From: a virus
Taxonomy: Duplodnaviria > Caudoviricetes
IMG/VR virus record: IMGVR_UViG_3300044809_000029
Coordinates: 1-54,384 of that record
Strand: one strand, 5' to 3'
Length of the DNA: 54,384 nucleotides
Position numbers and translations under genes: made by a program. Shown in pieces: positions 15,347-33,025 of this stretch. The notes beneath the pieces were generated by a model. That model worked only from the letters and a program-made list of their open reading frames with translations, searched no databases and was not told the origin of the DNA. Position 1 is the stretch's first letter. Every line of letters begins with the position of its first letter.

Positions 15347-15831
15347 AGGCGCTCATTCCCCGTGCCGAGCCACTCGTCGAGCTTCGCGTAATGCCCTCGG
15401 ATCGCTGCCTCCGGCATCGGCACGCGGCTGAACGCAGCGTGAACGAACTCGCGCGCGGACTTGCCGGGCCAGTCGAACAGGCTCGCGGCCTCCCCGTCGA
15501 ACTTCACGGGCATCCCCTGGCTCTCGACGGTCTCCCACGGGTCCGTCTTCTCCGCGCGCATCACGAGGCAGTCGCACGCCGCGATGAGGAAGTCGATCAG
15601 GAGATCCCCGATCTTCTCGTCGTCGCCGGGGTCCGGCACGTCGTCGGGGTCCAGGGCCTTGTAGCGCACGCCGAGGTGATGGCTGCCGGGGATCGCGAGG
15701 GTGAGGGTGCGGCGGGATCGGTCCTGCTTGTAGTCCGCGCGGATCTGGTCGAGCAGGGACCGGCCGCGCGGGCGGGGCTCGTCGTGCTCCTCGAGTTCCT
15801 CCGCGGGGATCGGTTCGACGTGGATGCTCAT
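15337..15831 (-). CDS. Tail assembly chaperone (G)
   Basis: Between tube and TMP; ends CTG GGG GAA TAG. Confidence 0.8.
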   Translation of the reverse strand: MSIHVEPIPAEELEEHDEPRPRGRSLLDQIRADYKQDRSRRTLTLAIPGSHHLGVRYKALDPDDVPDPGDDEKIGDLLIDFLIAACDCLVMRAEKTDPWETVESQGMPVKFDGEAASLFDWPGKSAREFVHAAFSRVPMPEAAIRGHYAKLDEWLGTGNERLGE

Positions 15832-16244
15832 GCGCCCGTCGGGGCCATGACGAGCTCGAAGACCGCGCGGTCGCTGGAGTTCTCGTCGGTGTCGGGCGGG
15901 TTGACCTCCGTGAGCGTTCCCGTCCACTGAGCGATCTTGCGGAACGGGTTGCCGTTGGCGTCCTTCGTCCACTTCGCGACCGTCATCGCGCCCTCCACGC
16001 CGACCAGCGCGTTGAGGCGACTCACGAACGAGTCCGTGTCGCGCTGCCAATCGAAGATCCGGCCGATCGTGACCGGCTGGATCTCCGGGAGCCCACCGAT
16101 CTGACTCGCGTACTTCTGCCCGGGGGACCGGTCGGAGGTAACGGCGGCGTGGATCTGCCCGCCAGCGCACGTCTGCCACTCCTCGAGATCCTCGCCGTTG
16201 AGGCGAGCGGTCACGATGAAGCCGCTGTTGAGTGTCTTGCTCAT
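15828..16244 (-). CDS. Tail tube protein
   Basis: 138 aa directly after the sheath; beta-rich. Confidence 0.75.
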   Translation of the reverse strand: MSKTLNSGFIVTARLNGEDLEEWQTCAGGQIHAAVTSDRSPGQKYASQIGGLPEIQPVTIGRIFDWQRDTDSFVSRLNALVGVEGAMTVAKWTKDANGNPFRKIAQWTGTLTEVNPPDTDENSSDRAVFELVMAPTGA

Positions 16245-16256
16245 CTCAGGGGCTCC

Positions 16257-17723
16257 TTACGCGAGCGACTGGTTGGGCTGGGCGAGCGACAGCAGGAACG
16301 TGATGAACTCCGCCCCGGGAGCGGGACGGAACCCCGTCGCGACCCACATCTGCCGGGCCGTCGCGGTGTCCGGCGTGTTCACCGAGTCGGTATCCACGAC
16401 GAACCCGCTCCCCGGCGTGTCGTTGTCGTCGAGGAACAGGTGATCCGCGAGCTCCTCCGCCATGAACACCGCAGTCGCGGCGTCGTGGAGGCGGATCAGG
16501 CGGCGATGCGTGATCGGGACGTGCTCGAAGCTCTGCCCGATCACGGTGAGCTGCGCGACGATGCTCATCCGCTGCCGGCACACGCTCATCTGCAACCACT
16601 CCGAGTCGTTGCCGAGCGGCTCCACGAGAGAGCGGTTGCCGTCGAACATCACGCCGCCGTAACGGCTGATGATGAGGTCCACGCCCGCGTCTTGGAGGTC
16701 GAGCTGGTCCTGGTTGACGTAGGTGGCCTTCACGTCGAGGACGAGGCTGGAGCGGGCCTTGCCGTGCTCCCCAGCGGGGGCCTGGTTCGCCCCGTCCGAC
16801 GCGTCGGTCTCCGCGCACTTCGCAGCGACGAACGCCGACGGGGGAACGCTCCGGACGGTGCCGGCGCTGGTGCCGGTGATCTTCAGCCACGGCGCGAGCA
16901 GCGACCCGTACAGGCCGTTCACGCTGCCCTGATCCGACGCGGCGAGGCTGAGGAGCGTGCTCTTGCTCGTCGTGTCCGTCGTGTCGCACAAGGCGTACCG
17001 GTTGTTGGCTGCGGCGTGAGCGAGAAGGCTCGTGTGCGCCGCGGCGGTCTGCCAGTTCGGGGAACAGACCTGACCGGGCCCGAGGTCCGGGCTGATGAGC
17101 GCGAGAGCCGTGTCCACCTGGGTCTGCGTGACGTTCACGTGGTCGTCCACTCCGCCCGTGAGGTTCGTCGCCCCGACCACCGTCGGCTGCCCGGACCCAC
17201 CGCCGAGCGCGAGCGTGACGTACGTCGAACTCGGCGACCACGTGACCGCATCAGCGGTCGTCAGGAACTCCGGGGTGCGCTCGACCTCCACGGCGTTGAG
17301 GTACACGACGACTTGCCGGTAGGAGCCACCGGAGGGGCCCGCGACGATCGCGTACGTGAGACCGCCGGTCGCGCCGTTCGCCCAATCGCCGCTGCTCTTG
17401 GCGGTGATGACGAGGGTCGTGCCCGTCCCGGCGATGTTCGCGCTCGCCTTCGCCCCCGCGGGCCCGTAGGAGCGGCTGTAGTAGACGGTCTGCCCGCCTT
17501 CGCGGAAGAACGTCTCCACCCAGTCGTAGTCGACGGACCAGGACACGCGCGCGCCGAGCTTGCTCGTGAAGTCGTCGAGGGAATGCAACGCGATCACGGC
17601 CGGGTTGCCCTGCGAGTCGGTGCCTCCCTTCTGCGCGAGGCCGGCGAGGAACGCGACGCCCGTGTCAGTCGGCGCGTTGCGCTGAGGCGGCGAGTCGCGA
17701 AGGATGACCGTGGTGCGCTTCAT
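16257..17723 (-). CDS. Contractile tail sheath protein
   Basis: TGVAFLAG, FFREGG, AKSSGDWAN, LTGG.D, VPPSAFVAA, QAPAG, PAPGAEFI. Confidence 0.9.
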   Translation of the reverse strand: MKRTTVILRDSPPQRNAPTDTGVAFLAGLAQKGGTDSQGNPAVIALHSLDDFTSKLGARVSWSVDYDWVETFFREGGQTVYYSRSYGPAGAKASANIAGTGTTLVITAKSSGDWANGATGGLTYAIVAGPSGGSYRQVVVYLNAVEVERTPEFLTTADAVTWSPSSTYVTLALGGGSGQPTVVGATNLTGGVDDHVNVTQTQVDTALALISPDLGPGQVCSPNWQTAAAHTSLLAHAAANNRYALCDTTDTTSKSTLLSLAASDQGSVNGLYGSLLAPWLKITGTSAGTVRSVPPSAFVAAKCAETDASDGANQAPAGEHGKARSSLVLDVKATYVNQDQLDLQDAGVDLIISRYGGVMFDGNRSLVEPLGNDSEWLQMSVCRQRMSIVAQLTVIGQSFEHVPITHRRLIRLHDAATAVFMAEELADHLFLDDNDTPGSGFVVDTDSVNTPDTATARQMWVATGFRPAPGAEFITFLLSLAQPNQSLA

Positions 17724-19158: not shown

Positions 19159-19653
19159 CTACGGCAGCAGTTCGGTCTCGACGGGAAGGCCCGGCCAGGA
19201 GTTCGCGACGACTGTTCCGACGGGCACCGAGTACGCGCGCACCCCGCCCGGCTGATCCTCCTGGGACGCAGCGACCGCGCCCTCCATGATGCTCGCGAAG
19301 TCCGCCTCGTACCCGTCGACGGGGCTTGATCCCTGCGCGATCTGCTCCGGGAAATAGGAGCGCTCAGCGGTCGCGGCGACCTTCAACGCGACCGCGTACT
19401 TCACCGCCGGGTACTGCGCCTCGGGAACAGTCGTGGGGAGCCTGACCAGGGTCGCGATGTTCACGAGGTCGATCAAGCCCTGGACTTGCGCGCGTGTCGG
19501 GACCGTGGAGTCGGTGAAGGTTGCGTTCGCGTTCGGGTCGCCGCCCTGGTCGGTGAGTCGCGCGCGCATGAGTAGCGCCACGTCGTCCGGGGTTGGCAGC
19601 AGGGCGGAGACGACATCGGGGTCGCCCTGGTTGAAGAGGAGAAGCAGGCTCAC
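19159..19653 (-). CDS. Head-to-tail adaptor
   Basis: PTPDDVALLMRAR...TFTDSTVPT...ERSYFPEQ; GGAGG RBS. Confidence 0.7.
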   Translation of the reverse strand: MSLLLLFNQGDPDVVSALLPTPDDVALLMRARLTDQGGDPNANATFTDSTVPTRAQVQGLIDLVNIATLVRLPTTVPEAQYPAVKYAVALKVAATAERSYFPEQIAQGSSPVDGYEADFASIMEGAVAASQEDQPGGVRAYSVPVGTVVANSWPGLPVETELLP

Positions 19654-19712
19654 GGGGCCTCCCGGGATAGGGGGCTTGTCACCGACTCGCGAGCACGCGA
19701 CACTCACGCGCC

Positions 19713-20453
19713 ATGCGACAAGCACTCAGAAAAACCGCGCAACGCCACGCGCCGCAGCTCATGGCCGAGCGCGCCCGCCAGTACGAGATCGGGCTCCGCG
19801 AGCGGCAGGGCATCACCGCGCTCGGCGATCGCATGGAGCCCGTCGTCCAGGCCGGCCCGTTCCAGGGGCTGCGCTACCCAGCCGAGCGGCTCGCGGAGGT
19901 GGACGCCCCGGTCGCGAAGTTCCTCGGCGTCTACGAGCAGGAGGTCGGCTACGTCTTTGAGGAGCCGCGCGCGCGGTTCGTGGACGTGGGGTGCGCGGAC
20001 GGGTACTACGCGGCGGGGATGGCCCTGCGGGGCGCGCGAGTGATCGGGTTCGACATTGCTCGGTCCGCACGCGAACTCTGCGACACGGTCGCGGGCATGA
20101 ACGCGGTCGAGGTGGAGATCGGCAAGCGGTTCGCGCCCGACGACGCGGGCTTGGTGCGTGACGGGCTGTTGCTCGTCGACATCGAAGGCGGGGAACGCGA
20201 TCTGTTCACGCCCAGCGTTGTCGAGCATCTCGGGGAGGCCCGGGTGCTGGTGGAGGTCCATGAGGACTTCCGGCCCGGCACCAGCGAATATCTGACCGCC
20301 CTGTTCGCTGCCTCGCATGAGGTCCGCCGCGTCGATCAGCAGCCCCGAGCGACCCCGGCGCCGCTACGGGAGTGGCCGCCGGAGGAAGTGGCATTGGCGC
20401 TGACGGAGCACCGGCCGCCGCTCATGCACTGGCTGGACTGCGTGCCGCGCTAG
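19713..20453 (+). CDS. SAM-dependent methyltransferase, FkbM-like (moron)
   Basis: LGVYE, FVDVGCADGYY motif I, VIGFD, LVDIEGGE, VEVH. Confidence 0.8.
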   Translation: MRQALRKTAQRHAPQLMAERARQYEIGLRERQGITALGDRMEPVVQAGPFQGLRYPAERLAEVDAPVAKFLGVYEQEVGYVFEEPRARFVDVGCADGYYAAGMALRGARVIGFDIARSARELCDTVAGMNAVEVEIGKRFAPDDAGLVRDGLLLVDIEGGERDLFTPSVVEHLGEARVLVEVHEDFRPGTSEYLTALFAASHEVRRVDQQPRATPAPLREWPPEEVALALTEHRPPLMHWLDCVPR

Positions 20454-20707
20454 TTCGGTGGCGCGAAGAACTCGGCCATGTACTCGCCCGGGATCTTGAC
20501 GCCGCCGCCCGGAGGCGCCTTCGGCCACCACTCAGGGAGCGATCCTTCCTTGATGATGATCGGTCCGCCAGCGCCGCCACCTCCGCCTCCGCCGACGTTT
20601 CCCATTCGAGGATTCCGCTCGGCGAGCGCGCGTTGCACGGCTTCCGCGACGCCCGGGCCGAAGACCGCTCCCGTGAACGCATCCACGATCCATCTCGGGT
20701 CACTCAT
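20450..20707 (-). CDS. Small hypothetical protein with Gly run
   Basis: ORF; shares VAEAVxRAL with 20786..21103. Confidence 0.55.
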   Translation of the reverse strand: MSDPRWIVDAFTGAVFGPGVAEAVQRALAERNPRMGNVGGGGGGGAGGPIIIKEGSLPEWWPKAPPGGGVKIPGEYMAEFFAPPN

Positions 20708-20785
20708 CGCCTAGCGATCCTACTCGGCTACTCGGGCAAATCCGCACTGGTTGGACTGCGTACCGCGCCCGTAGTTCCCAGGCGG

Positions 20786-21103
20786 TCATGCGCGTTCCGC
20801 GGCGGGGAAGTCGGCCTGGTCGACCCACCGCTCGCCACCGGGCGCAGTCGAGTCGAAGACGCGCACCTGCCCGGTCGAGCCGACGCCCGGGATGACGCGC
20901 GGGCCTCCACGCGGCCCGCTGTTTCCCCCGCCTAAGGAAGCGCGGCTGCCGAGGGCGCGATGTACTGCTTCGGCGACGCGTCGGAGCTCGTCCGGCATGA
21001 TCGGCATTGGGTCGTAGGCCTCGATGTTGCACCAGCCCGCTTCGCCGACCGCCTCTCGAAGCGCGTCGTAGATCAGCGTCAGGTCCTGTCGCTCGGTGCT
21101 CAT
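20786..21103 (-). CDS. Small hypothetical protein with fibre-like motif
   Basis: ORF; VGSTGQVRVFDSTAPGGERW. Confidence 0.6.
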   Translation of the reverse strand: MSTERQDLTLIYDALREAVGEAGWCNIEAYDPMPIMPDELRRVAEAVHRALGSRASLGGGNSGPRGGPRVIPGVGSTGQVRVFDSTAPGGERWVDQADFPAAERA

Positions 21104-21132
21104 CGACGGATGATCCCACGACCCTCGGAGGT

Positions 21133-21981
21133 CTAAGTCTTGGCGGTAGCGGCGGGGGCGACGGGGATCGCGCTGCCGGTGATGAGCCGGATCGCGCGGT
21201 CCCGCGCAACCTGCTCCCGGAGGCTGTCGAGCTGGCCTTCGCGGCGGTGGTCAGCGACGATCGCGTAGGCGGAGCGGCCGCTTGAGCGCGCCCACTTGTG
21301 CAGGAGGTCCGAGTGCGGAAGTTCCCGGTCGGTGGGAGTGAGCTTCTCCGCGAAGATGATCCGGGCGAGGACCATCTCGCGGCTGAGAACCCTCTCGATC
21401 CGCGCGCGGGCCTGCTCGGGGATCTCGTCCACGGGCTGCCCGGTCGCGCGTTCGATCTCGCGACGGGTGACGCGCAGGTCTGACCCGGCGACTACCGCGT
21501 CCAGGGCGGCATCGGCGAAGGCGTGCTTGGCCCGTTCGATCTCGGCTTCCTGCGCCCACCGCTCGCATTCCGCGAAGAGTTCCTCGGGGGTCTCATGGCC
21601 GCCCTGGTCAGCGAGTTCGTCGACGTTCGGCCGGTGCTTCATGGTGACGCCCTGGACGTGGACGCTCAGGGTGACGGGCGAGCCGTTCTGCGTGATCGTG
21701 ACGTCGCGGGTCTCCCCAGCACGAACGCCGAGGAGGCCGTCCTCGAAGCCTTCGGCGGTCCCGCCGCCGCCGAGCATGACGGTGACATCGCTCGCCTCCA
21801 GGGGCCCCGAGAAGTCGAGGGTGACGAGATCGCCATGCTCGGCGGGGCGAGCAGCCGGTGAGGTGGTGGCGTGGCGTTCGCGGAGGATCTCGACCTCCAT
21901 CGCGATCCGGTCGGGGGTGACCGGTCGCGGATCGACGCGCTCGACCTCCAGGCCCTTGTACTGGCCGAGTCGGGTGAGCAT
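21133..21981 (-). CDS. tig: Trigger-factor homologue lacking the N-terminal ribosome-binding domain
   Basis: LGQYKGLEVE linker, RPAEHGDLVTLDFSG and GFEDGLLG.RAGE FKBP-like domain, helical C-domain ending LREQVARDRAIRLI. Confidence 0.85.
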   Translation of the reverse strand: MLTRLGQYKGLEVERVDPRPVTPDRIAMEVEILRERHATTSPAARPAEHGDLVTLDFSGPLEASDVTVMLGGGGTAEGFEDGLLGVRAGETRDVTITQNGSPVTLSVHVQGVTMKHRPNVDELADQGGHETPEELFAECERWAQEAEIERAKHAFADAALDAVVAGSDLRVTRREIERATGQPVDEIPEQARARIERVLSREMVLARIIFAEKLTPTDRELPHSDLLHKWARSSGRSAYAIVADHRREGQLDSLREQVARDRAIRLITGSAIPVAPAATAKT

Positions 21982-24977
21982 CAGGCGAGGACGGTTTGGA
22001 AGACGGTTCCCGCGGCGCCGTCCGTGCCGTTGGCGCCCGTGCCGACCCCGTTGCCGTGCGTGCCGCCCGGAGAGGACAGGGTGCCCGCGTTGACGATCGG
22101 GGTGGTCGTGAACAGCACGACCGGGCCGCCGCCGCCACCACCGCCCCCGCCGCAGTTGCCCGTGGTGGGGGTGAAGCCGTTGCCGCCCGCGGAGCGGATC
22201 GTGCCGCCCGTGTTGTCGATCGACAGCGCGAAGATGATGACGCTCCCGCCTCCTGCGCCACCACCACCGCCGCTGTTCGTGCCGTCCCCGCCGCCGCCGC
22301 CGCCGCCGGTCCCGCCTGAGAGCGTGCGAACAGCGCCCGTGACGGGCGTCGCTGAGGTCAGGACGACCGACGGGATCTTCAACCGCTCCTTCGCCACGGT
22401 CGAAGTCGCCACGCCCGCAGGACCAGCAGAACCCGTGGACCCCGCTCCGCCCGCACCGCCGAGGCCAGACACGGCGAGGGCTGACACCGCGGCGGGAGTG
22501 GAGGGCGTGCCGGTAGCGCCGTTGCCGCCGTTGCCGCCGCTGCTCCATGTTCCGCTGCCGCCGCCTCCGGCTCCCGCCGTGGCAACAGAGGATGTGCCGT
22601 CGTCGTGGATCGTGCCCGCGTTGACGAACGCGCCCTGACAGAAGATCGCGTAGCCCTGCGTCTTGACCGTCACGCCCGTGTTGACGGTGAACGTGGTGGA
22701 GTGGCACTCGCGGTTCAGCGTGTAGGTCGTACCGGAGCGCGAGAAACCAGTGACGGCGCTCGTGCCGTCGAGGACGAGGGCGCCGTCCGAGCCGTCACCG
22801 AGCAGGCCCGCCCAGCCGCCGGTCGCGCCCGCGAGAGTGGCCCACTTCGCGCCGCCAGGCTGCGTCGAGTCCGCGGTGAGGACTTGGCCGTTCGTGCCGA
22901 TCGCCTTGCGGATGATCGTGTTGTCGGCCGACCCGATGAGGAGGTCGCCCTTCGCGTCGATGAGCGTCTGGAGGATCGCGTTCGGGTCCCCGCCGCCGTT
23001 GTTGGTGACGAGGCGCGAGTCGACCTTCACGCCGCTCGCGAGCCCGGCGTAGCTCCACGCCACCGCGGGCCCGTCCCACGGTCCGGCGGCCTTGACGACC
23101 TTCCCCGCGTTGGAGGGGTCCGGCTTGAGCCATGTGTCGGCGCTCGTGATCGACGCGTCAGTGGACGCGAGGTCCATGCGCTGCCCGGGCTCCCACATCA
23201 GGAAGTAGCCGGCGACCGTCGCGAAGTCCTGCGCGGCGACGCCGTGAACCGGGCCGGTCCCGCCCGCGGGGTAGCGCTTGAGGCGCTCGGAGGAGAGGCT
23301 CGTGCCGATCAGATCGTTCGCGGTCACGGCGCCCGTGTCGAGCTTCACGAGGTGCCCTTGCTTGCCCTTCGGGCCCTTCACGACGAGCGTCGGCGTGCCG
23401 CTTGTCGCGGTCCAGATCGGCTTGGTGTTGCTGATCCAGGTGAGGTCCACCGGCTCGAGGACGTTGCCGTTGGTGCCCCCGGCGGCGAGGATCGCGCAGC
23501 CGTCCGAGTCCGGACCGGGCGTGAGCAGGCTGCCGACGTCGCCGATCATGATGTTCGAGTCGAAGACGCCGCACTTCACGGAGGCGCGCTGCGGCTGCCC
23601 CACGACCATGCGATCAGTCGTGAACGCGTTGGCGGTCGACGCGCCGAGCCAGAGGTTCCTGGTGACGCTGTCGTCGCTGACGCTGTAGATGTACCCGTTG
23701 CCGTACGCCTCGCAGGGGCAGTCGCGGAGCACGGCGCCGCTCAGCAGGATCTGGTTCGGCCACAAGGGCACGAGCGTCGTCGCGGTCGACGGGCCCGTGT
23801 CCGTGAAGACGTTGGTGAGGGAGACGAACCGGGCGAGGACCGTCGTCGTGCCTGGCGTCGCGCTCGTCGCGCGGTAGACGATCCACGCGGTGGCGTCCGC
23901 GTCCGCGGGCATCGTGATCGTGGCGCTACCACCCGCAGCGACGACGGTCGCTGCGGACGCAGCGCTGACCATCGCCTCATCGACGACGCCGTACAGGGGC
24001 GCGTAGAAGTAGAAGAACGTGCCACCCGCGGTGAACGGAGCGCCCGTGGAGCCGCCGACATTGGCGACGGTGGTCGGGCCGGCGACCGGGGTGCTGCTCT
24101 CCCCGTAGATCCCGTAAGGGCCATCACCGAGATGCGCGCTGTCCGCTGAAACTCCGCCGATCATGTTGGAGCCCTTGCAGGCCCAACTGCTGAAGATGTT
24201 GCTCGCGAAGTTCGACCCGCCGCCGATGTACTGGTCCGCCTCCGCGTTGCGATCCAAGCCCCAGAAGAGACCGAGGTAGTTGCTCGAGCAGATCGTGTCG
24301 TACACCGAGGAGTGGTCGGCCGCGAACTCGATCCCGCGGTAGAAGTAGCTGGCGCGGACATCCCACGTAGAGCAGTTGCCGCCCGCAAGCAGCAAGCCGT
24401 GCATCTTGCACGGGGCCGGACCACCGGGGCTGCTGGTGTGCGTGGGGCCGCTGACGCCGATCCCGCGGATCTCGAAGTGCTCCGCCTTCAGGATGTCCGG
24501 GCGCAGCGCGTAATAGCCCTTCCCGAAGTCCGTGAGCGGCTGGATGACCGATGCCTCTTTGCCGTCCCCGTAGATGTTCGTCTTGGCGCCCGTGGCGACG
24601 ACCTCCGCGTCGGTTCGGTAGGCCGCCTGAGGCATGTAGATCGCGCTGGTGCGGGAAGGGTCGATGATCGCGGCGTTCGCGGCGAGGATCGCGGCAGTGA
24701 TCGCGCACCAGTCGATCTGCTGCGCTGTGCTGAGGGCGAACGGGTAGACGACCTGCGCGGCCGCGAGCGACGCGAACCGGGTCGAGAGAGCGTGCGCGGT
24801 GCCGTCGCCGATCGCGCCGTAGTCCTTGACGTTGAACCCGGACGGGGCAACGCCCTTGAACTTCCCCGCGATCGCGTCGTAGACCAGGCGGCGGTGGTCG
24901 AGAGCAGCAGTCGCCGCGTCAACGTCAGTGAGGGTCGCGAGGCTCCCGCCCCCCGATGAACGACCGGAGCTACTCAT
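21981..24977 (-). CDS. Large multidomain fibre/depolymerase in the head module
   Basis: FNVKDYGAIGDG beta-helix start, IDAKGDLLIG motif, GDGSDGAL and Gly-rich C-terminus. Confidence 0.85.
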   Translation of the reverse strand: MSSSGRSSGGGSLATLTDVDAATAALDHRRLVYDAIAGKFKGVAPSGFNVKDYGAIGDGTAHALSTRFASLAAAQVVYPFALSTAQQIDWCAITAAILAANAAIIDPSRTSAIYMPQAAYRTDAEVVATGAKTNIYGDGKEASVIQPLTDFGKGYYALRPDILKAEHFEIRGIGVSGPTHTSSPGGPAPCKMHGLLLAGGNCSTWDVRASYFYRGIEFAADHSSVYDTICSSNYLGLFWGLDRNAEADQYIGGGSNFASNIFSSWACKGSNMIGGVSADSAHLGDGPYGIYGESSTPVAGPTTVANVGGSTGAPFTAGGTFFYFYAPLYGVVDEAMVSAASAATVVAAGGSATITMPADADATAWIVYRATSATPGTTTVLARFVSLTNVFTDTGPSTATTLVPLWPNQILLSGAVLRDCPCEAYGNGYIYSVSDDSVTRNLWLGASTANAFTTDRMVVGQPQRASVKCGVFDSNIMIGDVGSLLTPGPDSDGCAILAAGGTNGNVLEPVDLTWISNTKPIWTATSGTPTLVVKGPKGKQGHLVKLDTGAVTANDLIGTSLSSERLKRYPAGGTGPVHGVAAQDFATVAGYFLMWEPGQRMDLASTDASITSADTWLKPDPSNAGKVVKAAGPWDGPAVAWSYAGLASGVKVDSRLVTNNGGGDPNAILQTLIDAKGDLLIGSADNTIIRKAIGTNGQVLTADSTQPGGAKWATLAGATGGWAGLLGDGSDGALVLDGTSAVTGFSRSGTTYTLNRECHSTTFTVNTGVTVKTQGYAIFCQGAFVNAGTIHDDGTSSVATAGAGGGGSGTWSSGGNGGNGATGTPSTPAAVSALAVSGLGGAGGAGSTGSAGPAGVATSTVAKERLKIPSVVLTSATPVTGAVRTLSGGTGGGGGGGDGTNSGGGGGAGGGSVIIFALSIDNTGGTIRSAGGNGFTPTTGNCGGGGGGGGGPVVLFTTTPIVNAGTLSSPGGTHGNGVGTGANGTDGAAGTVFQTVLA

Positions 24978-25708
24978 CGGGTCGCCACCGACACTTCCGT
25001 CGTGCCCGAGACGCGCTCCAAGTACAAGCTCGTGCCGTACGCGATGCCGTTCGTGAAGCTGTCGCGGATCGACTCGTTCGCCGCGAGGGAAACCGTCGCG
25101 AGGATCGTGCCGCCGGACCCGTCACGCAGTCGCAGGACCGCGCCGGCGGACGTGGTCGTCTCCCGGGCGCTGAAGCTCATCAGGCGCCCAGTGCCCGCGA
25201 CGAGTTGCCCAGAGGAGGTCGCGGCAGCGGAAGCGAACGGGGTGGCGCCCGTGAGGAGCGCCTGGATCGCCGCGAGAGCGGTGTTGGCCGTCCCCTGACC
25301 AGTGCCCGTCGACGGGTCGCTCGTGATCTTCGCGAGCACGGCCGCGAGAGTCGTCTGCGTCGCGGGGTCCGCGGTGAGCTTCGCGAGGACAGCCGCCAGC
25401 GTGGTCTGCGAGGCGAGACCCGCGGTGTTCGTCTCCAGTCCGTCGACCGACGCCAGAACCGAGGCGAGCGTGGCCTCCGTCGCCGGCGCGGCGATGATCT
25501 TCGCAAGGATCGAAGCCAGCGTCGCCTGCGTCGCGAGCGTCGCGAGGTCGAAGTCGTTGGCGACCCCGTCCCCGCCCGTCGCGAGCTTGATGATCTGCGC
25601 TTGGACGCCATCCTGCGCGGGAGGGGAGCCGTTGCGGCTCGTGACCTCATCGGTGAGGACACGGAACGGGTTGCCGTCGGCGTCCTTGAGCTTCGTGTCG
25701 TCAGCCAT
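24974..25708 (-). CDS. Virion structural protein with ATQTTLAAVLAK-type repeats
   Basis: Four to five imperfect helical repeats plus a beta-rich C-terminal domain. Confidence 0.75.
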   Translation of the reverse strand: MADDTKLKDADGNPFRVLTDEVTSRNGSPPAQDGVQAQIIKLATGGDGVANDFDLATLATQATLASILAKIIAAPATEATLASVLASVDGLETNTAGLASQTTLAAVLAKLTADPATQTTLAAVLAKITSDPSTGTGQGTANTALAAIQALLTGATPFASAAATSSGQLVAGTGRLMSFSARETTTSAGAVLRLRDGSGGTILATVSLAANESIRDSFTNGIAYGTSLYLERVSGTTEVSVATR

Positions 25709-25770
25709 CAGGCGCTCCTCCGTGCAGGGAGAACGAGGAAAGAGAAAAGAAAGAGGGGACCGCGCGCGTT

Positions 25771-25859
25771 AGCGGCGGTGATGCCACTCCGGGAGCTCAA
25801 GCCAGCCAGGGACGCGGATACGCCTCGGACGTGGCTCAAGCTCCTCGGGGAGCGGCGGT
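25771..25859 (-). terminator. Long imperfect hairpin after the capsid genes, followed by a pyrimidine tract
   Basis: GGAGCTTGAGCCA/TGGCTTGAGCTCC stem on the minus strand; CTCTTTCTTTTCTCTTTCC tract at about 25737-25756. Confidence 0.5.
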
Positions 25860-26236
25860 TACTGCGTGTCGTCGCCCGCGTCGTGCGCGAGCAGGCTGTC
25901 CACGAGATCGTCCTTGAGGACGCGCCCGTTGGCGCCCGTGCCCTTCACGTCGAGACCGCGACGCTCCGCCTCCGCCTTCAGATCGGCGGGGCTGTGCGCC
26001 TCGTAGTCGCCGGTGATCCCGGCGAGTGACGGGGTCTCGTGCGGCTCGCGCTCCGAAGGAACGGGCTCGCTCGACGCGGCCGTGACCGGCTCGCTGGACG
26101 TGAACGCGCCCAGCTCGTCGCCGCGCGTGATCTCCTCCTCGGAGAGGTCGACCTTCTCCCCCTGGTAGGCGACCCGACGGGAACCGCCGGGCGCCTTGTA
26201 GGAGTAGAAGACGTGTCGGATCGTTCGCTGAGGCAT
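25859..26236 (-). CDS. Capsid-adjacent protein with SAP/E3-binding-like C-terminal domain
   Basis: DLKAEAERRGLDVKGTGANGRVLKDDLV. Confidence 0.75.
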   Translation of the reverse strand: MPQRTIRHVFYSYKAPGGSRRVAYQGEKVDLSEEEITRGDELGAFTSSEPVTAASSEPVPSEREPHETPSLAGITGDYEAHSPADLKAEAERRGLDVKGTGANGRVLKDDLVDSLLAHDAGDDTQ

Positions 26237-26241
26237 ACCGA

Positions 26242-27153
26242 TCAGGCCTGCAGGCCGGTGACCTCGAGGATCGCGAACGGGTCGGTGACGTACATGATCG
26301 GCAGCACGAACGACTGGAACCAGTCGCCCTGGCGGCCGTCCTTGTCGCGCCACGTCTCCGTCGTGAGGGGCATCTCGTAGCCGAGCTCGCCGACCTGTCC
26401 GGCGGCCAGGAAGTACGCGGAGCCGCCGGCCTTGCGGTTGGTGACCCACACGTTGTTGATCCCGGTGTCAGCGAGGACCGCCCGCGCCTGCGCCGCCGTC
26501 GCGCCGACCGCCATGCGGAAGTTCCGCCAGTCGACCGGGTTGACGATCATCGTGTCGTACTCGTAGCCGAGCTCGGTCTGCTCGACGGACTGCTGCACGA
26601 GCGTGAGATCGCTGATCGGCAGCGCGTTCGGTGCCGCGGTCGTCATGGTGAGCGCGGTCGCGTCCCCCCACGAGGAGCCGGTGGCCGTGCGGGAGTTCGC
26701 GGTGATCGCCGCCGCCAGCTCCGTGAGCGCGCGCTGCTGGACCTTGCGCACGATCGTGTTCGACAGCCGGGTGATGTCGCGCTGCACGCGACCGATGCGG
26801 TTGCGGCGACGTGCCTCGTCGGAGACGACGAACTTGCCGCCGAACTTCTCGACCTGCGCCGTGAGCGGGGCCGGGCGATCGAAGGTGATCTCCGGGAACT
26901 CACCGAGCGGCTCGACGCGCTGCACGTCACGGGTGGCGTACAGGTCGTTGGTGGTCGCCTGGTCGTAGATCACAGCGCCGCCGGTGATGTCACCGGCCGG
27001 GCTGAAAATCCGGTCGACCATGAACTTCTGCAGCGCGAGGTTGCTGATCGCTCGCGTGACGCGCGTGACGTCGTCGAGCAGCCAGTCCACGGTGTACGTG
27101 GTGCCCGACAGCGTCGGGGGAGCGAGGGGATAGGTGAGTGCGTCGTCAGCCAT
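26242..27153 (-). CDS. Major capsid protein (HK97 fold)
   Basis: VEPLGEFP...VEKFGGKFVVSDEARRRN; position after decoration and scaffold genes. Confidence 0.88.
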   Translation of the reverse strand: MADDALTYPLAPPTLSGTTYTVDWLLDDVTRVTRAISNLALQKFMVDRIFSPAGDITGGAVIYDQATTNDLYATRDVQRVEPLGEFPEITFDRPAPLTAQVEKFGGKFVVSDEARRRNRIGRVQRDITRLSNTIVRKVQQRALTELAAAITANSRTATGSSWGDATALTMTTAAPNALPISDLTLVQQSVEQTELGYEYDTMIVNPVDWRNFRMAVGATAAQARAVLADTGINNVWVTNRKAGGSAYFLAAGQVGELGYEMPLTTETWRDKDGRQGDWFQSFVLPIMYVTDPFAILEVTGLQA

Positions 27154-27611: not shown

Positions 27612-28238
27612 CTAGGTCTGAAGCTCGTCCCGCGAGCGGAGCTGCGGGAAGATCGCCGCGAATGCGGCGGCCTCGTCGGCTGGTTGCGCCGCCTCTTGGC
27701 GGGCGCCCTGGTGCTGGTCCACGGTGTGCGTGTCCGTGGTGGGCGTCGCGCCCTTGAACAGGTCCTCGCCGTATTCAGCCGTCGCGGCCGTGATGGCGTC
27801 CTTGAGGTTCTGCGGCTCGTCGGCGTCGTCGTATTCGACGCTGTCGAGGAGTCGAGCGGCGGCCTTGGCCTTGCCGCCCGTGAGGCCCTCTTCGGCGAGG
27901 GCCATGAGGAGATGGGCGCGGCGGAGCTTCTCGGTCGCCTTCGCGGCGAGTGCCTGCCCGTCCTCGGCCTGCTTCTTGAGCTTCTCCGTCTCGGAGAGCT
28001 TGTCCTCTTCGAGCTTGTCGAGCTTGGCTTGCGCGTCGCGCGCTGCCTTCTCGGCCGTCTTGCGGGCGGTGTCGGCTTCCTTGCGTGCCGCGCGTTCGGC
28101 TTCGAGTGCGCGGTGCCCGGCCTCGCCGAGCTTGTCCTTCTCCGCCTGCTCAGCGGCCTTCTTCTCGTCCGCAGCCTTCTTAGCGGCGGCTTCCTGCTCA
28201 GCCTTCGCGGCCTCTGCAGCGGGGTCGGTGTCGGGCAT
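27612..28238 (-). CDS. Scaffolding protein
   Basis: LGEAGHRALEAERAARK; A/E/K-rich coiled coil; KLSETEKL. Confidence 0.85.
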   Translation of the reverse strand: MPDTDPAAEAAKAEQEAAAKKAADEKKAAEQAEKDKLGEAGHRALEAERAARKEADTARKTAEKAARDAQAKLDKLEEDKLSETEKLKKQAEDGQALAAKATEKLRRAHLLMALAEEGLTGGKAKAAARLLDSVEYDDADEPQNLKDAITAATAEYGEDLFKGATPTTDTHTVDQHQGARQEAAQPADEAAAFAAIFPQLRSRDELQT

Positions 28239-28342: not shown

Positions 28343-29164
28343 TTAGGTCAGTGCCGCGAGCGGCGACTCGGTGATCCCGTCGTGCTCGTGGAGCATCGGA
28401 ACGGACGCGATCAGCGCATCGAACGGCACGGCGCCCGAGCGGATCAGGCTGGCCTTCTCAGACCCGAGGAGCAGATCCTGCTCCGTCGGCGTCAACGCGT
28501 CGAACGTCTCCCGCCCTGTGGGCCGGTGGATCGTCTCGCGGACACCGTCGACTACCGGCTCGGCTTGGCAGCGACAGAAACGGTGGTTGCGGAGCACGTC
28601 GCCCTTGCGTTCGACCGCGCCCGTAGCGGACGCGAGACAAGCGCCGCACGCCCCCGCCGCCGTAACGCGACGCCACCCCTTGATCTGCTCGTCCAACGTC
28701 ATCAGGTCGTGCAGAGCAGCCCGTGGAGCCGCGAGGGACTCCGTTGCGACGACGCGGACAGCGCGGTTGCGGCCCATTCTCAGCGCCTCCGCTTCGTTGC
28801 GGCCCTGCGCTAGCGCGATCTTGGTCGTGATGAGCGCGCCGGCAAACGCCTTCACCAGCGGCTGCCCCGATGAGTCGCTCCCGGCGTACCGGGCCGTATC
28901 GACCGGCTGGGTCGATGTTGGGCGACCTAGTTCGGCGGAGACGTACCCCGCGAGATACGCGCCCGAGAAGCCCGCTCCGAGAGCCTGCGCTCGCTCGAGC
29001 ACAAGAGCCGCCGTTGTGGACCACTGCTCGAAGGTGCCGTTGAGGTCCCGTGCGCTGATCTGCTGCCATCGCGTGACTGACGCGGCCACGGCCTGCTGGC
29101 GGATCGTGAGCAAGCGCGCGCGGTAGGCGTCCGTGAGTTGCACGGCCCGCTGGGTGGCGGGCAC
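28343..29164 (-). CDS. MuF-like minor head protein
   Basis: GWRRV...ACGAC...HRFCRC. Confidence 0.78.
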   Translation of the reverse strand: MPATQRAVQLTDAYRARLLTIRQQAVAASVTRWQQISARDLNGTFEQWSTTAALVLERAQALGAGFSGAYLAGYVSAELGRPTSTQPVDTARYAGSDSSGQPLVKAFAGALITTKIALAQGRNEAEALRMGRNRAVRVVATESLAAPRAALHDLMTLDEQIKGWRRVTAAGACGACLASATGAVERKGDVLRNHRFCRCQAEPVVDGVRETIHRPTGRETFDALTPTEQDLLLGSEKASLIRSGAVPFDALIASVPMLHEHDGITESPLAALT

Positions 29165-29165
29165 C

Positions 29166-29321
29166 CTACGGCTTCCTGGGCCAGCCCGGATCGCCCTGCA
29201 ACATGCACACGATCTCGAACCCGTCGAGTGGGCACACGAACGTCACCGGGCCGGGGATGATCGCCTGGCCTCGCTTGGGGACCAAGTCGAAGAACTCGCA
29301 CACCGGGCACTGAAGGCTCAT
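29166..29321 (-). CDS. Small Cys-containing protein (51 aa)
   Basis: Translated by hand [11 protein letters not shown]...FVCPLDG; ATGA overlap with the portal stop. Confidence 0.5.
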   Translation of the reverse strand: MSLQCPVCEFFDLVPKRGQAIIPGPVTFVCPLDGFEIVCMLQGDPGWPRKP

Positions 29322-30769
29322 GCGGCCACCGGAAGCTCAGGCGCGGCCGACGGGATGGTGCCGTTGTTCGTCGTGTCCGGGCTGAACAGGGATGCGAGCT
29401 GCGCGTCCTGCATCTCCTGCTCTCGCAGCCGCTTCAGACGAGCGATCTCGGAGGGTCCGTAACCGGCCTCCTCCATGAGCGCCTGCCACGGCACGCCGAT
29501 CTGCTGCTTCTTCACGAGCGAGTCAGCGATCACGCCGGGCGCGCGGGACTCCGGATCGCGCCAGATCGTGTCAGCGTCCATGACCTCGGACTTCCGGCGG
29601 TCCGCGGTCACGTCAGCGCCCGTCGCGAACGAGCGCCACTTGAACGCGAGACGCATCGCCTCCTCCCACGAGTCAGCGAAGTCCAGTTGCTTGCGACGCA
29701 CCTTAGCGACCAACCCGGTCTCCGCCGCCTTCAGGGCATCGCCGGAGAGGTTGACCATCTTCGCGAGCAAGTAATGAGGCGGCGTGCGGGTCTGCGCGGC
29801 GATGTGCTGCACCGCGAGCTCCACGCCGTGAACGTAGTTTCCGAGATCACCCGGGGAGAGGTCATAGGCCTTCGCGTTGGGGTCCTCGAAGACGAGCATC
29901 CGTGAGACGGCCATCTCGATCGGCACAGGCATCGGCTGACCCGCCTGCGGGTGCCCCTCCGGGAACCTGGGGACCTCCACGCCGGACAGCACGCGCTGAC
30001 GGAACGCCTGGTACTCGGACGCGACGATCATGTCCGTGAAGAACTTATTCGCCGCGTCGTTGAGTCGGATCGCGGGTCGCAGATCGCTCACGCCTCCGTC
30101 CAGCAGCCCGGGAGTGTTCGCCATCGGCACAATCGGCACAATCCCGAGCGGGTTCGCCGTACGGCCCACGAGCTGCTGCTCACCAGTCGAGACTGGCAAC
30201 TCCACGCCGAGCGCCGCAACCCTGCCGGCCGCTCCATCAGAGCGCCAGAGGTACGTGAAATCGGGCAGGTAGAGAACGATGACCGTGGAGCCGTCGAAGT
30301 CCCGGTAGCGCTTCAGCGCCGCGAGGCGGGTCTGCGGATCGGACGGGTCGACCTCAACGATGACCTGCGACGGATGCTCCACGCGTATCCGCGGCACACC
30401 GTTCGGACCAGGCCCGACGGACAGGTAGGAGACCATGCACTTCCCGGCCTCCGTGTGCGCCTTCAGCGACTCCGCGTCCAGCCGGTTGGCCTGCCAGATC
30501 TTCCAGGCGTCCATGTCCGCCTCGTCCGTGTCGAAGCGGAAGCCCTGCACCGCAAGCCGCTCAGCGGGGGAGTCGACGACGAGCCCGCACCAGTTCGTCG
30601 CGAACTCCTGGAAGAGGACCCCGAACGCTTCCTTGAACTTCGACGTAGCGAAGCTCAGACGGTGATTGCCCGCGTAGTACGCCTCGTAGAGATCGACCTT
30701 CGGTTGGCGCGCGCTCAGCTTCTGCTCAAGCAGGCTCCGCCACGCGTCCGGTGTCAGGTCCCGCGGCAC
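29318..30769 (-). CDS. Portal protein (SPP1 gp6-like)
   Basis: YYAGNH...[12 protein letters not shown]...[10 protein letters not shown]...[14 protein letters not shown]. Confidence 0.92.
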
Positions 30770-31441: not shown

Positions 31442-33025
31442 CTATAGGTAGGCTAAAGCTCGCGACCGCCTAGAAGCGCCCGCCGCGATGGCGTCCCCGC
31501 GGCACTCCCACGAGAGGACAGCGGCCATCGCCGCGTCGATCTTCCGCGGGGAGTCATGCCGGTCCTTCGCGAGCGTGTGCATCTGCTGGTGGCGCTCATC
31601 CCACACGTTGACCTTGCGCTTGCGCGCGTGCCGGATGTGAGCGTCGAACGTCGCCTCCCCCGGGTGGGAGAGATCACCGGACCCGATCGCGGTCGCGTAG
31701 TTGCGGACAGCCGCGGCGATCTGCCGGTCCCGGTTCGTTGTCCACACCAGGACGCGCTTGTCGCCCCACCGGCCCTGCCACGCGTCCACGAGATGCTCGA
31801 TGTACTGCGGGTCGACGTACGCGCGCCACACGTCGAACCGCTCGAACGCCTCGCGCATCGCAGCGTCAACGTCATGAAACGGATGCTCGTACTCCGGAGG
31901 GGCGCTGGGAGGGCGTTCGATGATCCCGAGCGGCCACTGGTAGCCCGTCAGGATCTCCGTCGCGATCACGGCGATGGAATCGCGGTTGCGGGCACCATCG
32001 ACACCCACAACGATCAAGCCACCCGGGGCGGGTTCGTGCGCGACCGCGAGATCGTGCCAACGGTCAATGTCGAACGCGGCGCTCTCACCGGCCATCTTGC
32101 GGTTCAGGAAGAATCGCTCCGCCTGCGCCGGGTCATGCTCGAGCAGCGCAACGATCTCCGAGTCGATCCGGTCAAGATCAATCCACGGCTTCACAGCGCC
32201 GATCACGCCGTCGCGGGTCCCGGAGCAGGAGTCGCGGTAGACGCGTTTGAGCATCCGGCGGCGCTCCGCCTTGTTCCTTACCGAGCCCGGGCCGGGCTCA
32301 ACGTCGTCGTGGTAGACGCCCGGTTCCTCAGCGGTCTGCTGCGCCACCGAGTTCTCAACGGGGTCCCACGCGTTCGGGGTCTCCACGAACCGGCCGCCCA
32401 TGCCCGCGAGGCCGCGCCGCTGGTTGTCAGCGAGCGCGCGGCCGGCGTTCGTGCGATACCACGACTCGGTCTGATCCTGCACCGTGAAAGTGATCCGCTG
32501 CCCGAGCCGGGAGAGCGCCGCAGCTGTGACCGGCTCGATCAGGCCACCGGAAGGGAGGTTGATGCGGGTCTTGCCCGTGTCCGGGATGTCCGCGCGGATA
32601 CTGCCGAGTTCGATCATCGGCAGGAGCGCTCGAAAGACGTTCGCGGTCTGATCCTCCGAGACAGCGGTGACCTGAATGTGCGGTGACGGCCACGGCTTCC
32701 CGACCGGCTCCCCTTCTGCGTCCCACCCAGCGAACAAGACGGGGCCCTCCGGGTCAGCTTCCGCGCAGATGATCGCCGCGCTGAACGGGCCCTTCCCCCA
32801 CTTCTGCGGCCGGACGAGCTGCGAGCCGCGATCCCAATGAAACCGCTCAGTCTCCGGGTCGATCCGGTAGTGGTGCAGGAGGAACCGCAACATCTCGTCC
32901 GTCAGCAGGAACGGCTCGCCGGCTCGTTCACCGTCCGGGATCGCGCACTTCGCCTCGATCAGGTCCGCTACGAGATACCCGAGCGTCGGGAACTCCCCGG
33001 GGACCCGGGCGCCACGCCACGGCAT
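31442..33025 (-). CDS. terL: Terminase large subunit
   Basis: RPQKWGKG Walker A, VQDQTE Walker B-like, GVDGA...KIDAAMA nuclease motifs. Confidence 0.92.

What the first reader, a model, noticed from the sequence alone, without database searches (positions are those of the whole stretch)
21133..24977. Phage-encoded, ribosome-detached trigger factor coupled to a giant head fibre
Seen: a 282-aa ORF starts (TGATG overlap) at the stop of the 998-aa fibre gene. It begins at the trigger-factor linker motif LGQYKGLEVE, then has an FKBP-like domain and a helical C-domain. Known: cellular TF has an N-terminal ribosome-binding domain of about 120 aa with the GFRxGxxP motif, which is absent here. The FKBP loops usually seen as DGxxFEGG and FPxxYH also appear deleted, so PPIase activity may be lost. 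Inference: a host chaperone co-opted as a dedicated post-translational holdase or trimerisation chaperone for the beta-helix/Gly-rich fibre. I am not aware of this as a described phage module.
Basis: partly seen in the sequence, partly recalled or inferred. Interest (0 to 1): 0.9.

Follow-up and report, generated by a model that had tools for sequence, protein, structure and literature searches.

The report
Phage trigger-factor chaperone without ribosome anchor
A complete soil phage genome carries a shortened copy of the bacterial chaperone trigger factor that lacks its ribosome-docking domain and sits directly behind a very large fibre gene, so it probably helps that fibre or other virion proteins to fold, though this link rests on gene position in one genome.

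Summary
ORF 21133-21981 (-), 282 aa, overlaps the stop of the 998-aa fibre gene in TGATG. It is a genuine trigger factor (TF) homologue that begins at the linker (TIGR00115 positions 107-409 of 410, E 6.9e-27; AF2 pLDDT 96.7; the 8 best PDB fold matches are all TFs). No Trigger_N is encoded anywhere in this complete 54-kb phage. The two FKBP loops are missing, and so is about 25 residues of Arm1.

One relative of the same build exists: P0019, 295 aa, 37-39% identical, sharing two of the three deletions. It forms a supported clade with the window's protein, so this is an old, maintained lineage. I could not see its gene neighbourhood.

The fibre link is weak. It is seen only in this genome: 0 of 19 phage loci with the same fibre C-terminal module, and 0 of 36 loci with a related capsid gene, carry a TF-like gene. 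Overlaps of 1 or 4 bases are common in this phage.

The idea of an N-less, dedicated TF is known from PceT/RdhT, and N-less TF-like proteins recur in bacteria. Full-length phage TFs also exist, and this scan noted them before on other DNA.

Verdict: a new variant of a known kind. The best reading is a post-translational chaperone for the fibre module (confidence about 0.45).

The parts
21133..21981 (-). TF282 (P0001): N-terminally truncated trigger factor homologue, 282 aa plus stop
   Evidence: AF2 pLDDT 96.7, pTM 0.84; the 8 best Foldseek PDB hits are trigger factors, E 5.7e-14 to 4.2e-8
21979..21983 (-). TGATG stop/start overlap between the fibre gene and TF282
   Evidence: no in-frame alternative start in the 16 codons upstream and no clear SD, read from the same call
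21634..21843 (-). Reduced FKBP-like (PPIase-type) domain of TF282, residues about 47-116
   Evidence: FKBP_C at residues 47-98; strands E52-58, 63-69, 91-98, 101-116; two loops missing
21160..21633 (-). Helical C-terminal (substrate-binding) domain of TF282, residues about 117-274, with Arm1 shortened by about 25 consensus columns
   Evidence: Trigger_C at residues 174-267; helices 120-270; deletion after residue 179; arm boundaries from PMC5722895 passages
21981..24977 (-). 998-aa fibre-like protein, stop included
   Evidence: residues 44-153 match PHROG 'tail protein' families; homologues carry PF12708, PF13229 and PF02839; no Pfam hit of its own
21984..22847 (-). Gly-rich C-terminal module of the fibre (residues 711-998), a module shared by many phage proteins
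   Evidence: 46% identity to the C-terminus of the L007 ORF; Smith-Waterman 548 against shuffles 152 +/- 15, z 26.6; AF2 pLDDT above 90 for about 730-800 and 890-998; 19 viral loci; viral clusters with TM 0.76-0.79
24974..25708 (-). 244-aa repeat-bearing protein that overlaps the fibre start by 4 bases; probably part of the fibre module
   Evidence: four TLA..LAK-type repeats visible in the translation; no Pfam or PHROG hit
20786..21103 (-). 105-aa ORF 29 nt downstream of TF282
   Evidence: a 24-residue stretch resembles fibre residues 692-716 (z 5.2, weak) and shares VAEAVxRAL with the next ORF (z 6.6)
20450..20707 (-). 85-aa Gly-rich ORF, last minus-strand ORF of the cassette
   Evidence: no Pfam hit
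19713..20453 (+). Methyltransferase-like gene on the opposite strand, inside the cassette
   Evidence: Methyltransf_23/11/25 at E 3e-4 to 2e-3, all below the curated cut-offs
26242..27153 (-). Major capsid protein, upstream border of the variable slot
   Evidence: phrog_1650 E 6.1e-72
19159..19725 (-). 188-aa conserved gene, downstream border of the slot; presumed head-tail connector by position
   Evidence: homologues in 5 of 36 capsid-related loci, 0.3-3.9 kb after the capsid gene

Best explanation
TF282 is a phage-owned descendant of cellular trigger factor. It keeps the linker, a reduced FKBP-like head and the helical substrate-binding body, and it has lost the ribosome-docking domain. It therefore cannot wait at the ribosome exit and must act on released or still-assembling polypeptides as a holdase or assembly chaperone. 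Prolyl isomerase activity is probably gone.

The gene is translated from the late structural operon. Ribosomes that have just finished the 998-aa fibre most likely reinitiate at TGATG, so the chaperone is made beside its most probable client: the large beta-helix/Gly-rich fibre, or the small fibre module around it.

Shown: identity, fold, truncation, loop losses, phage ownership, the overlap, and the existence of an old lineage of the same build.

Inferred: chaperone activity, loss of PPIase activity, reinitiation, and the identity of the client.
For: Identity and fold:
- TIGR00115 positions 107-409 of 410, E 6.9e-27.
- AF2 pLDDT 96.7.
- The 8 best PDB fold matches are all TFs.

Start point and missing domain:
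- The protein starts at the boundary of the ribosome-binding domain. Residue 11 aligns to E. coli residue 123. The ribosome-binding domain is 1-113 and the linker 114-149 (PMC5722895 passages).
- No Trigger_N anywhere in the complete genome.

Still a chaperone-type body:
- The C-terminal domain is TF's substrate-binding domain (PMC5722895 passages), and most of it is kept.
- T. maritima TF is equally short at the second (FPxDYH-type) FKBP loop, where the alignment needs no gap. Its entry 3gty is described as showing folding and assembly activities.

A maintained lineage:
- P0019 (295 aa) is 37% identical, E 7e-45.
- It shares 7 of 9 and 20 of 25 deleted columns.
- It joins P0001 with SH-aLRT 97.
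- Full-length TFs close to this pair keep those segments.

Operon and precedent:
- Coding-type GC pattern like the other phage genes.
- TGATG without an SD, and no terminator-like site between the fibre gene and TF282.
- The gene sits in a fibre cassette that fills a variable slot between the capsid gene and the next conserved gene.
- Precedent for a TF-like chaperone dedicated to the product of a gene in its own cluster: PceT (PMC8905343 abstract and passages).
Against: - The pairing is seen in one genome only.
- Fibres with the same C-terminal module lack a TF-like neighbour in 0 of 19 loci within about 6 kb. The closest one, in L007, is followed at once by the next conserved gene. If the fibre is the client, the need is not general, or it lies in the unique first ~700 residues.
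- 0 of 36 capsid-related loci have a TF-like gene. Some of those loci are short.
- Overlaps of 1 or 4 bases are common here, for example 8813, 12659-12662, 24974-24977, 43030-43033 and 47020-47023.
- No sequence variation was available for a selection test. The second run holds identical pieces.
- Arm1, part of the client cradle, is shortened.
Confidence: 0.45

Rival explanations
1. TF282 is a general helper for late phage proteins: an auxiliary chaperone like phage GroES or GroEL homologues, with no particular tie to the fibre. Its position merely reflects insertion into a permissive slot of the late operon.
For: - TF binds many clients; the 3gty entry title speaks of 'promiscuous substrate recognition'.
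- A full-length TF occurs in another phage beside replication genes, not fibres (L172). Scan notes report further phage TFs (unchecked).
- The slot between the capsid gene and the next conserved gene takes varied cargo, including an opposite-strand methyltransferase-like gene.
- Overlapping stops and starts are common in this phage.
Against: - Loss of ribosome docking removes the feature that gives TF its general access to nascent chains (PMC5722895 passages).
- The gene is placed exactly at the end of the largest structural gene, with no ribosome-binding site of its own.
- Relatives with 40-61% identical capsid proteins do without it.
Confidence: 0.25
2. TF282 has a role other than chaperoning that was built on the TF scaffold. 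It might be a structural or adaptor part of the fibre complex, or a decoy that engages host partners of TF such as the ClpXP-linked network.
For: - Long branches (about 1.0 substitution per site at each tip, stem 0.64) and remodelled loops suggest a change of function.
- A functional link between TF and ClpXP is reported (PMC7804408, abstract only).
- The small ORFs downstream echo fibre motifs, which hints at a multi-part fibre complex (weak z scores).
Against: - The fold is very confidently TF-like, with the substrate-binding body kept.
- No feature of a virion protein was found.
- No evidence of any host interaction.
Confidence: 0.15
3. TF282 is a decaying fragment of a captured host tig gene with no function.
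For: - Truncated, with eroded PPIase residues and three internal deletions.
- Singleton cluster.
Against: - The ORF is intact and starts exactly at a domain boundary.
- Coding GC pattern and a very confident fold.
- A 37-39% identical relative has the same truncation and shared deletions, which requires long maintenance.
- The deletions remove whole surface loops, not core elements.
Confidence: 0.05

Closest known systems
Bacterial trigger factor (Tig; TIGR00115; E. coli 1w26, T. maritima 3gty/3gu0)
   Same: Homologous linker, FKBP-type head and helical C-terminal substrate-binding domain, by sequence and by fold. The nearest named cellular TFs in my sample are from Thermoleophilia MAGs, about 30-33% identical.
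   Different: - No ribosome-binding domain and no GFRxGxxP motif.
- Below the equivalog cut-off: 94.3 bits against 180.2.
- PPIase pocket residues lost.
- Arm1 shortened.
- Encoded by a phage, in a structural operon.
PceT/RdhT, the TF-like chaperone of reductive dehalogenase operons
   Same: A TF-like protein acting as a chaperone dedicated to the product of a gene in its own cluster (PMC8905343 abstract and passages). That PceT lacks the N-terminal domain is my recollection of Maillard et al. 2011, which the library does not hold.
   Different: - A different client: a Tat-signal-bearing corrinoid enzyme, against a phage fibre.
- A different host setting.
- No sequence comparison was made, because I had no PceT sequence from a tool.
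- N-less forms look polyphyletic in my tree: 6 changes for 7 rows.
Phage tail-fibre assembly chaperones (T4 gp38 and gp57A, lambda/Mu Tfa) and C-terminal intramolecular chaperone domains (Peptidase_S74); these names are recalled, not from a call
   Same: A gene directly downstream of the fibre gene and expressed with it, with a presumed role in fibre folding or oligomerisation.
   Different: No sequence or fold relation. TF282 matches only TF families in Pfam, PHROGs and NCBIfam, and the fibre has no Pfam domain at all.
Full-length phage-encoded trigger factors (L172 here; phrog_26774; scan notes e1-5736321 and e1-6104038)
   Same: TF homologues carried by phages. TF282 matches phrog_26774 at E 8e-14.
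   Different: Those keep the N-terminal domain; the 414-aa ORF in L172 carries PGFRKGK. L172's copy lies beside replication genes. TF282 is N-less and lies in the structural operon.

Membership tests
Trigger factor (tig, TIGR00115 equivalog) | N-terminal ribosome-binding domain with the GFRxGxxP motif (Trigger_N) | tested here: not met
   No Trigger_N on the protein. The model match starts at position 107. No Trigger_N in six frames of the complete genome at E <= 1, while the control rang in 10 of 14 reference genomes.
Trigger factor (tig, TIGR00115 equivalog) | FKBP-type PPIase domain with an intact hydrophobic pocket | tested here: not met
   The domain is present: FKBP_C 22.6 bits against 21.1, and the fold matches. 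The pocket is not intact. F177 and Y221/H222 are deleted, and F185V, I195A and F233L are substituted. The roles of His222 and Ile195 come from PMC6166725 passages; the other residue names are recalled.
Trigger factor (tig, TIGR00115 equivalog) | C-terminal helical substrate-binding domain (Trigger_C) | tested here: met
   Trigger_C 28.8 bits against 22.7, profile positions 69-160 of 162. Helices 120-270 in the model. Arm1 is shortened by 25 consensus columns.
Trigger factor (tig, TIGR00115 equivalog) | Score above the curated equivalog cut-off | tested here: not met
   94.3 bits against 180.2.
PceT/RdhT-type dedicated TF-like chaperones | TF-like protein without a ribosome-binding domain, encoded next to its client | tested here: met
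   N-less and overlapping the fibre gene. That this build defines RdhT is partly recalled.
PceT/RdhT-type dedicated TF-like chaperones | Binds the Tat signal peptide of a reductive dehalogenase; lies in an rdh operon | not tested
   The feature comes from PMC8905343 passages. I ran no search for a reductive dehalogenase gene. The ORFs I annotated are phage structural and lysis genes. Binding cannot be tested with these tools.
Phage tail-fibre assembly chaperones (Tfa/gp38/gp57A types) | Sequence membership in a known fibre-chaperone family | tested here: not met
   Only TF-type families were found in Pfam, PHROGs and NCBIfam.
Phage tail-fibre assembly chaperones (Tfa/gp38/gp57A types) | Gene immediately downstream of the fibre gene, with the pairing recurring across phages | tested here: inconclusive
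   Adjacency is met. Recurrence is not: 0 of 19 loci with the fibre module and 0 of 36 capsid-related loci carry a TF-like gene. The context of P0019 was not seen.

The most novel reading that the evidence does not exclude
P0001 and P0019 found a small, old family of virus-borne 'free' trigger factors. In it, translational coupling to the client gene replaces ribosome docking: the chaperone is made by the same ribosome that has just released a giant fibre polypeptide and captures it in cis. This would be a trans-acting counterpart of the intramolecular chaperone domains of other phage fibres, and a way by which phages turn a general host chaperone into a private assembly factor.
Probability: 0.3. 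Interest if true: 0.7.

Novelty: new variant of a known kind. Interest (0 to 1): 0.5.

Why it matters
Large trimeric beta-helix fibres and tailspikes are hard to fold. Phages solve this with private chaperones of several unrelated kinds. A fibre-linked chaperone derived from trigger factor would add a new origin for such helpers, and it would be a natural experiment on what TF can do away from the ribosome. It could also be of practical use as a co-expression partner for producing recalcitrant phage fibres or depolymerases. Even if the client is not the fibre, the gene shows that phages have kept a ribosome-free TF body over long evolutionary time.

Tried and rejected
- Complex prediction of TF282 with fibre residues 660-998: verdict 'no answer', score 0.00 against a mark of 0.32, controls not run. 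This is not evidence either way.
- Expression: no RNA holder is listed among the sequencing runs. Contigs of two soil DNA runs were laid on the region. X1 may be the source sample. X2 holds short pieces with 0 differences, so no variants were available for a dN/dS-type test.
P0019 was not found in viral contigs. The scan's notes had nothing on it.
- Close relatives of P0001: none in viral contigs. In the phage collection, 4 of 4 protein hits are unannotated 'Bacteriophage sp.' faecal contigs. I looked at one, H3. Its TF ORF is 426 aa and is followed by ORFs of 196 and 421 aa, sizes that fit tig-clpP-clpX. I read it as bacterial DNA; this is an inference from ORF sizes only.
- Fibre comparison by BLAST or tblastn with composition correction found nothing. 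A Smith-Waterman score against shuffles did.
- The AF2 model of the whole fibre was poor (mean pLDDT 47.7), and its PDB fold search gave nothing below E = 8.7. This says nothing about the first ~700 residues.
- BFVD fold search with TF282: 1 match at E <= 0.001, covering about 96 columns of the FKBP part only, and no TF-like viral entry.
- Programmed frameshift fusing the fibre to TF282: the TF frame is open for 271 codons upstream, but that stretch translates to Arg-rich nonsense. I saw no slippery heptamer before the stop. Rejected as unsupported.
- Host assignment: not pursued beyond the TF tree. Thermoleophilia TFs are nearest, but the joint node has only 81% support, and the named rows were picked with patterns taken from the query.
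- Literature: searches listed no paper on a phage-encoded trigger factor. I saw only titles and abstract beginnings there. Supplements were not consulted.


Full report
**What the window is.** The window is one whole virus record of 54,384 bases. It has direct terminal repeats and is rated 100% complete. GC content is 63-71%, and there are no tRNA genes. Most genes lie on the minus strand. PHROG matches give this order: large terminase 31442-33025, portal 29318-30769, protease 28343-29164, scaffold 27612-28238, major capsid 26242-27153, then the region of the finding. After it come sheath 16257-17723, tube 15828-16244, tape measure, baseplate and lysin. It is therefore a contractile-tailed phage. 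The only DNA match among isolated phages is 216 bases at 74.8% identity in the capsid gene of Gordonia phage GMA4, found in 2 records of the same genome. Pieces of the same phage, with no differences, occur in contigs of a second soil metagenome run from another study.

**The observation.** The 998-aa ORF (21981-24977, minus strand) ends in TGA, and the A of that TGA is the A of the ATG of a 282-aa ORF (21133-21981). No other canonical start lies in frame in the 16 codons upstream, and there is no clear Shine-Dalgarno sequence (read). The GC pattern by codon position, 0.75/0.49/0.87, is that of the phage's other genes.

The protein (P0001, here called TF282) matches families as follows:
- NCBIfam tig model: positions 107-409 of 410, E 6.9e-27, 94.3 bits, below the equivalog cut-off of 180.2.
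- Pfam Trigger_C and FKBP_C: both just above their cut-offs.
- phrog_26774: E 8e-14.

With an 80-sequence alignment, AlphaFold2 gives mean pLDDT 96.7 and pTM 0.84. The eight best PDB fold matches are all trigger factors (E 5.7e-14 to 4.2e-8), followed by FKBPs.

**What is missing.** Residue 11 aligns with E. coli TF residue 123. The ribosome-binding domain of E. coli TF is residues 1-113, with GFRxGxxP at 43-50, and the linker is 114-149 (PMC5722895 passages). TF282 thus starts at the domain boundary. Trigger_N is found nowhere in six frames of the genome at E <= 1.

Against the other 78 sequences of the alignment, TF282 lacks:
- 116 N-terminal consensus columns;
- 9 columns after residue 61;
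- 9 columns after residue 97;
- 25 columns after residue 179. This third deletion maps to the start of Arm1 (residues 302-360).

By E. coli numbering, counted on the printed alignment:
- F168 and F198 are kept;
- F185, I195 and F233 become V, A and L;
- F177 and Y221/H222 fall in the deleted loops.

His222 and the backbone of Ile195 take part in proline recognition and catalysis (PMC6166725 passages). The list of the other pocket residues is from my memory. Loss of isomerase activity is likely but inferred. T. maritima TF aligns without a gap at the second of these loops, so a short FKBP head there is compatible with a working TF.

**Relatives.** An exhaustive phmmer search of 1.84 billion representatives gave 949 hits at E <= 1e-3. 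Only 2 were at E <= 1e-30: the protein itself and P0019 (295 aa, E 2.3e-34). On P0019:
- It is 37% identical over 285 columns.
- It starts 9 residues before the same linker motif.
- It shares 7 of the 9 columns of the first FKBP deletion and 20 of the 25 Arm1 columns, but it keeps the second FKBP loop.
- It is a singleton from a 7,321-base JGI contig, where the source names it 'trigger factor'.

In two quick maximum-likelihood trees, P0001 and P0019 form a clade with SH-aLRT 97. The stem is about 0.64 and each tip about 1.0 substitutions per site. The pair sits beside the TFs of Thermoleophilia MAGs, but that joint node is weak at 81. The named rows were found with patterns taken from the query, so the placement is only a lead. 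Full-length TFs near the pair keep the deleted segments, so the deletions arose in the short lineage. Two proteins this far apart that share a truncation and two deletions argue for long maintenance and against a decaying fragment.

**How rare the build is.**
- Of 112 foreign loci with a hit among the 115 fetched from metagenomes and genomes, 110 have at least 102 open codons upstream of the linker. The two exceptions are L068 (56 codons) and L098 (at a contig edge).
- The word-based search returned only full-length TFs: 17 of 17 hits other than the protein itself carry PF05697.
- In 401 genomes of the class of the best genome hit, 380 match, and all 150 listed places lie in open frames of at least 379 aa. 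One of these genomes, G346, is unpublished.

N-less TF-like proteins are nonetheless not unique:
- Five other representative hits of 310-338 aa start at the linker and have full FKBP_C and Trigger_C.
- Atlas clusters of about 295-360 aa carry Trigger_C with or without FKBP_C, and few of their members have Trigger_N.
- In the tree, the N-less rows need 6 changes for 7 rows, so they arose several times, or some of them are partial gene calls.

**The fibre and the link to it.**
- The 998-aa protein has no Pfam hit. Residues 44-153 match PHROG 'tail protein' families. Its homologues carry pectate-lyase-type, beta-helix and carbohydrate-binding domains.
- Its last ~285 residues form a Gly-rich module that is confidently modelled. 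The module is 46% identical to the C-terminus of a 782-aa ORF in L007, a phage with a 53% identical capsid protein, where it occupies the same slot. The module also occurs in 19 other viral loci and in viral Atlas clusters.
- A TF-like gene was found in 0 of these 19 loci and in 0 of the 36 capsid-related loci. In L007 the fibre gene is followed 12 bases later by the homologue of the 188-aa gene.
- The distance from the capsid gene to that conserved gene is 0.3 to 3.9 kb in the 5 relatives where both are seen, and 6.5 kb in the window. This is a variable slot. Here it holds, on the minus strand, a 244-aa repeat protein, the fibre, TF282 and ORFs of 105 and 85 aa. A methyltransferase-like gene lies on the other strand.
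- Overlaps of 1 or 4 bases join several other gene pairs of this phage.

The link between TF282 and the fibre therefore rests on adjacency, the absence of a ribosome-binding site of its own, and membership of one cassette. It does not rest on recurrence.

**Mechanism.** The body that TF uses to hold clients is kept. The ribosome anchor is gone, and the isomerase site is eroded. The most economical reading is a post-translational holdase or assembly chaperone made late in infection. The fibre is the likeliest client, because reinitiation at TGATG would make the chaperone where the fibre has just been released. PceT/RdhT shows that a TF-like protein can be dedicated to the product of a gene in its own cluster (PMC8905343). 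The T. maritima structure entry is described as showing assembly activity. I give this reading about 0.45, a general late-protein helper 0.25, another role on the TF scaffold 0.15, and a relic 0.05. Nothing here measures binding.

**Comparison and novelty.**
- Full-length TFs occur in phages. L172 has a 414-aa copy with the ribosome-binding motif beside a DNA polymerase III alpha gene. The scan's earlier notes describe two more on other DNA (not checked by me).
- BFVD holds no TF-like viral model.
- My five literature searches listed no paper on a phage TF.

What is new here is the combination: an N-less TF, in a phage, at the end of a fibre gene, with one distant relative of the same build. 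That makes it a new variant of a known kind. It is of moderate interest, limited by the single genomic instance and by the lack of any functional test.

Noticed in passing
window 21984-22847 (-); L007 13583-14440; L153-L171: The Gly-rich C-terminal module of the fibre, about 285 aa with a GDGSDGA start and a run of nine glycines after NC, is shared by many phage proteins. It has no Pfam family and gave no PDB fold match. In Atlas clusters it also occurs as stand-alone viral proteins of about 300-376 aa. One weaker feature hit (0.87, a lead only) carries Mtd_N.
   Followed up: partly
window 19725-26242; L002, L004, L007, L008, L021: The stretch between the major capsid gene and the conserved 188-aa gene is a variable slot. 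It spans 0.3-3.9 kb in five relatives and 6.5 kb here, with different fibre-like or beta-helix cargo in L004 and L007.
   Followed up: partly
window 20786-21103 and 20450-20707 (-): The two small ORFs after TF282 share VAEAVxRAL (z 6.6 against shuffles). The 105-aa ORF has a 24-residue stretch like fibre residues 692-716 (z 5.2), and the 85-aa ORF has a Gly run like fibre residues 936-955 (z 5.0). These are weak signals; function is unknown.
   Followed up: partly
window 19713-20453 (+): A methyltransferase-like gene lies on the opposite strand inside the structural operon (three Pfam methyltransferase models, all below their cut-offs). A terminator-like hairpin on the minus strand lies at 19756-19738.
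   Followed up: no
window 24974-25708 (-): The 244-aa protein upstream of the fibre overlaps the fibre start by 4 bases. It shows four repeats of a TLA..LAK-type motif followed by a beta-rich end. It looks fibrous and has no family match.
   Followed up: no
window 7101-8813 (-): A second beta-helix protein of 570 aa (Beta_helix 2.3e-14, NosD 4.8e-12) lies in the tail/baseplate module. The phage thus has a tail-borne spike candidate besides the 998-aa protein.
   Followed up: no
L172 1071-2315: A low-GC IMG/VR phage contig encodes a full-length 414-aa trigger factor with the ribosome-binding motif, between a nuclease-like gene and a DNA polymerase III alpha gene.
   Followed up: partly
P0097, P0119, P0123, P0136, P0138: These are TF-like proteins of 310-338 aa that start at the linker and have complete FKBP_C and Trigger_C. 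They are scattered on the TF tree, so N-less TFs seem to have arisen several times. Their contexts were not seen.
   Followed up: partly
window 25859-26239 (-): The small gene after the capsid gene is conserved in several relatives. It ends in a helix-hairpin that weakly matches the E3_binding and SAP domains.
   Followed up: no
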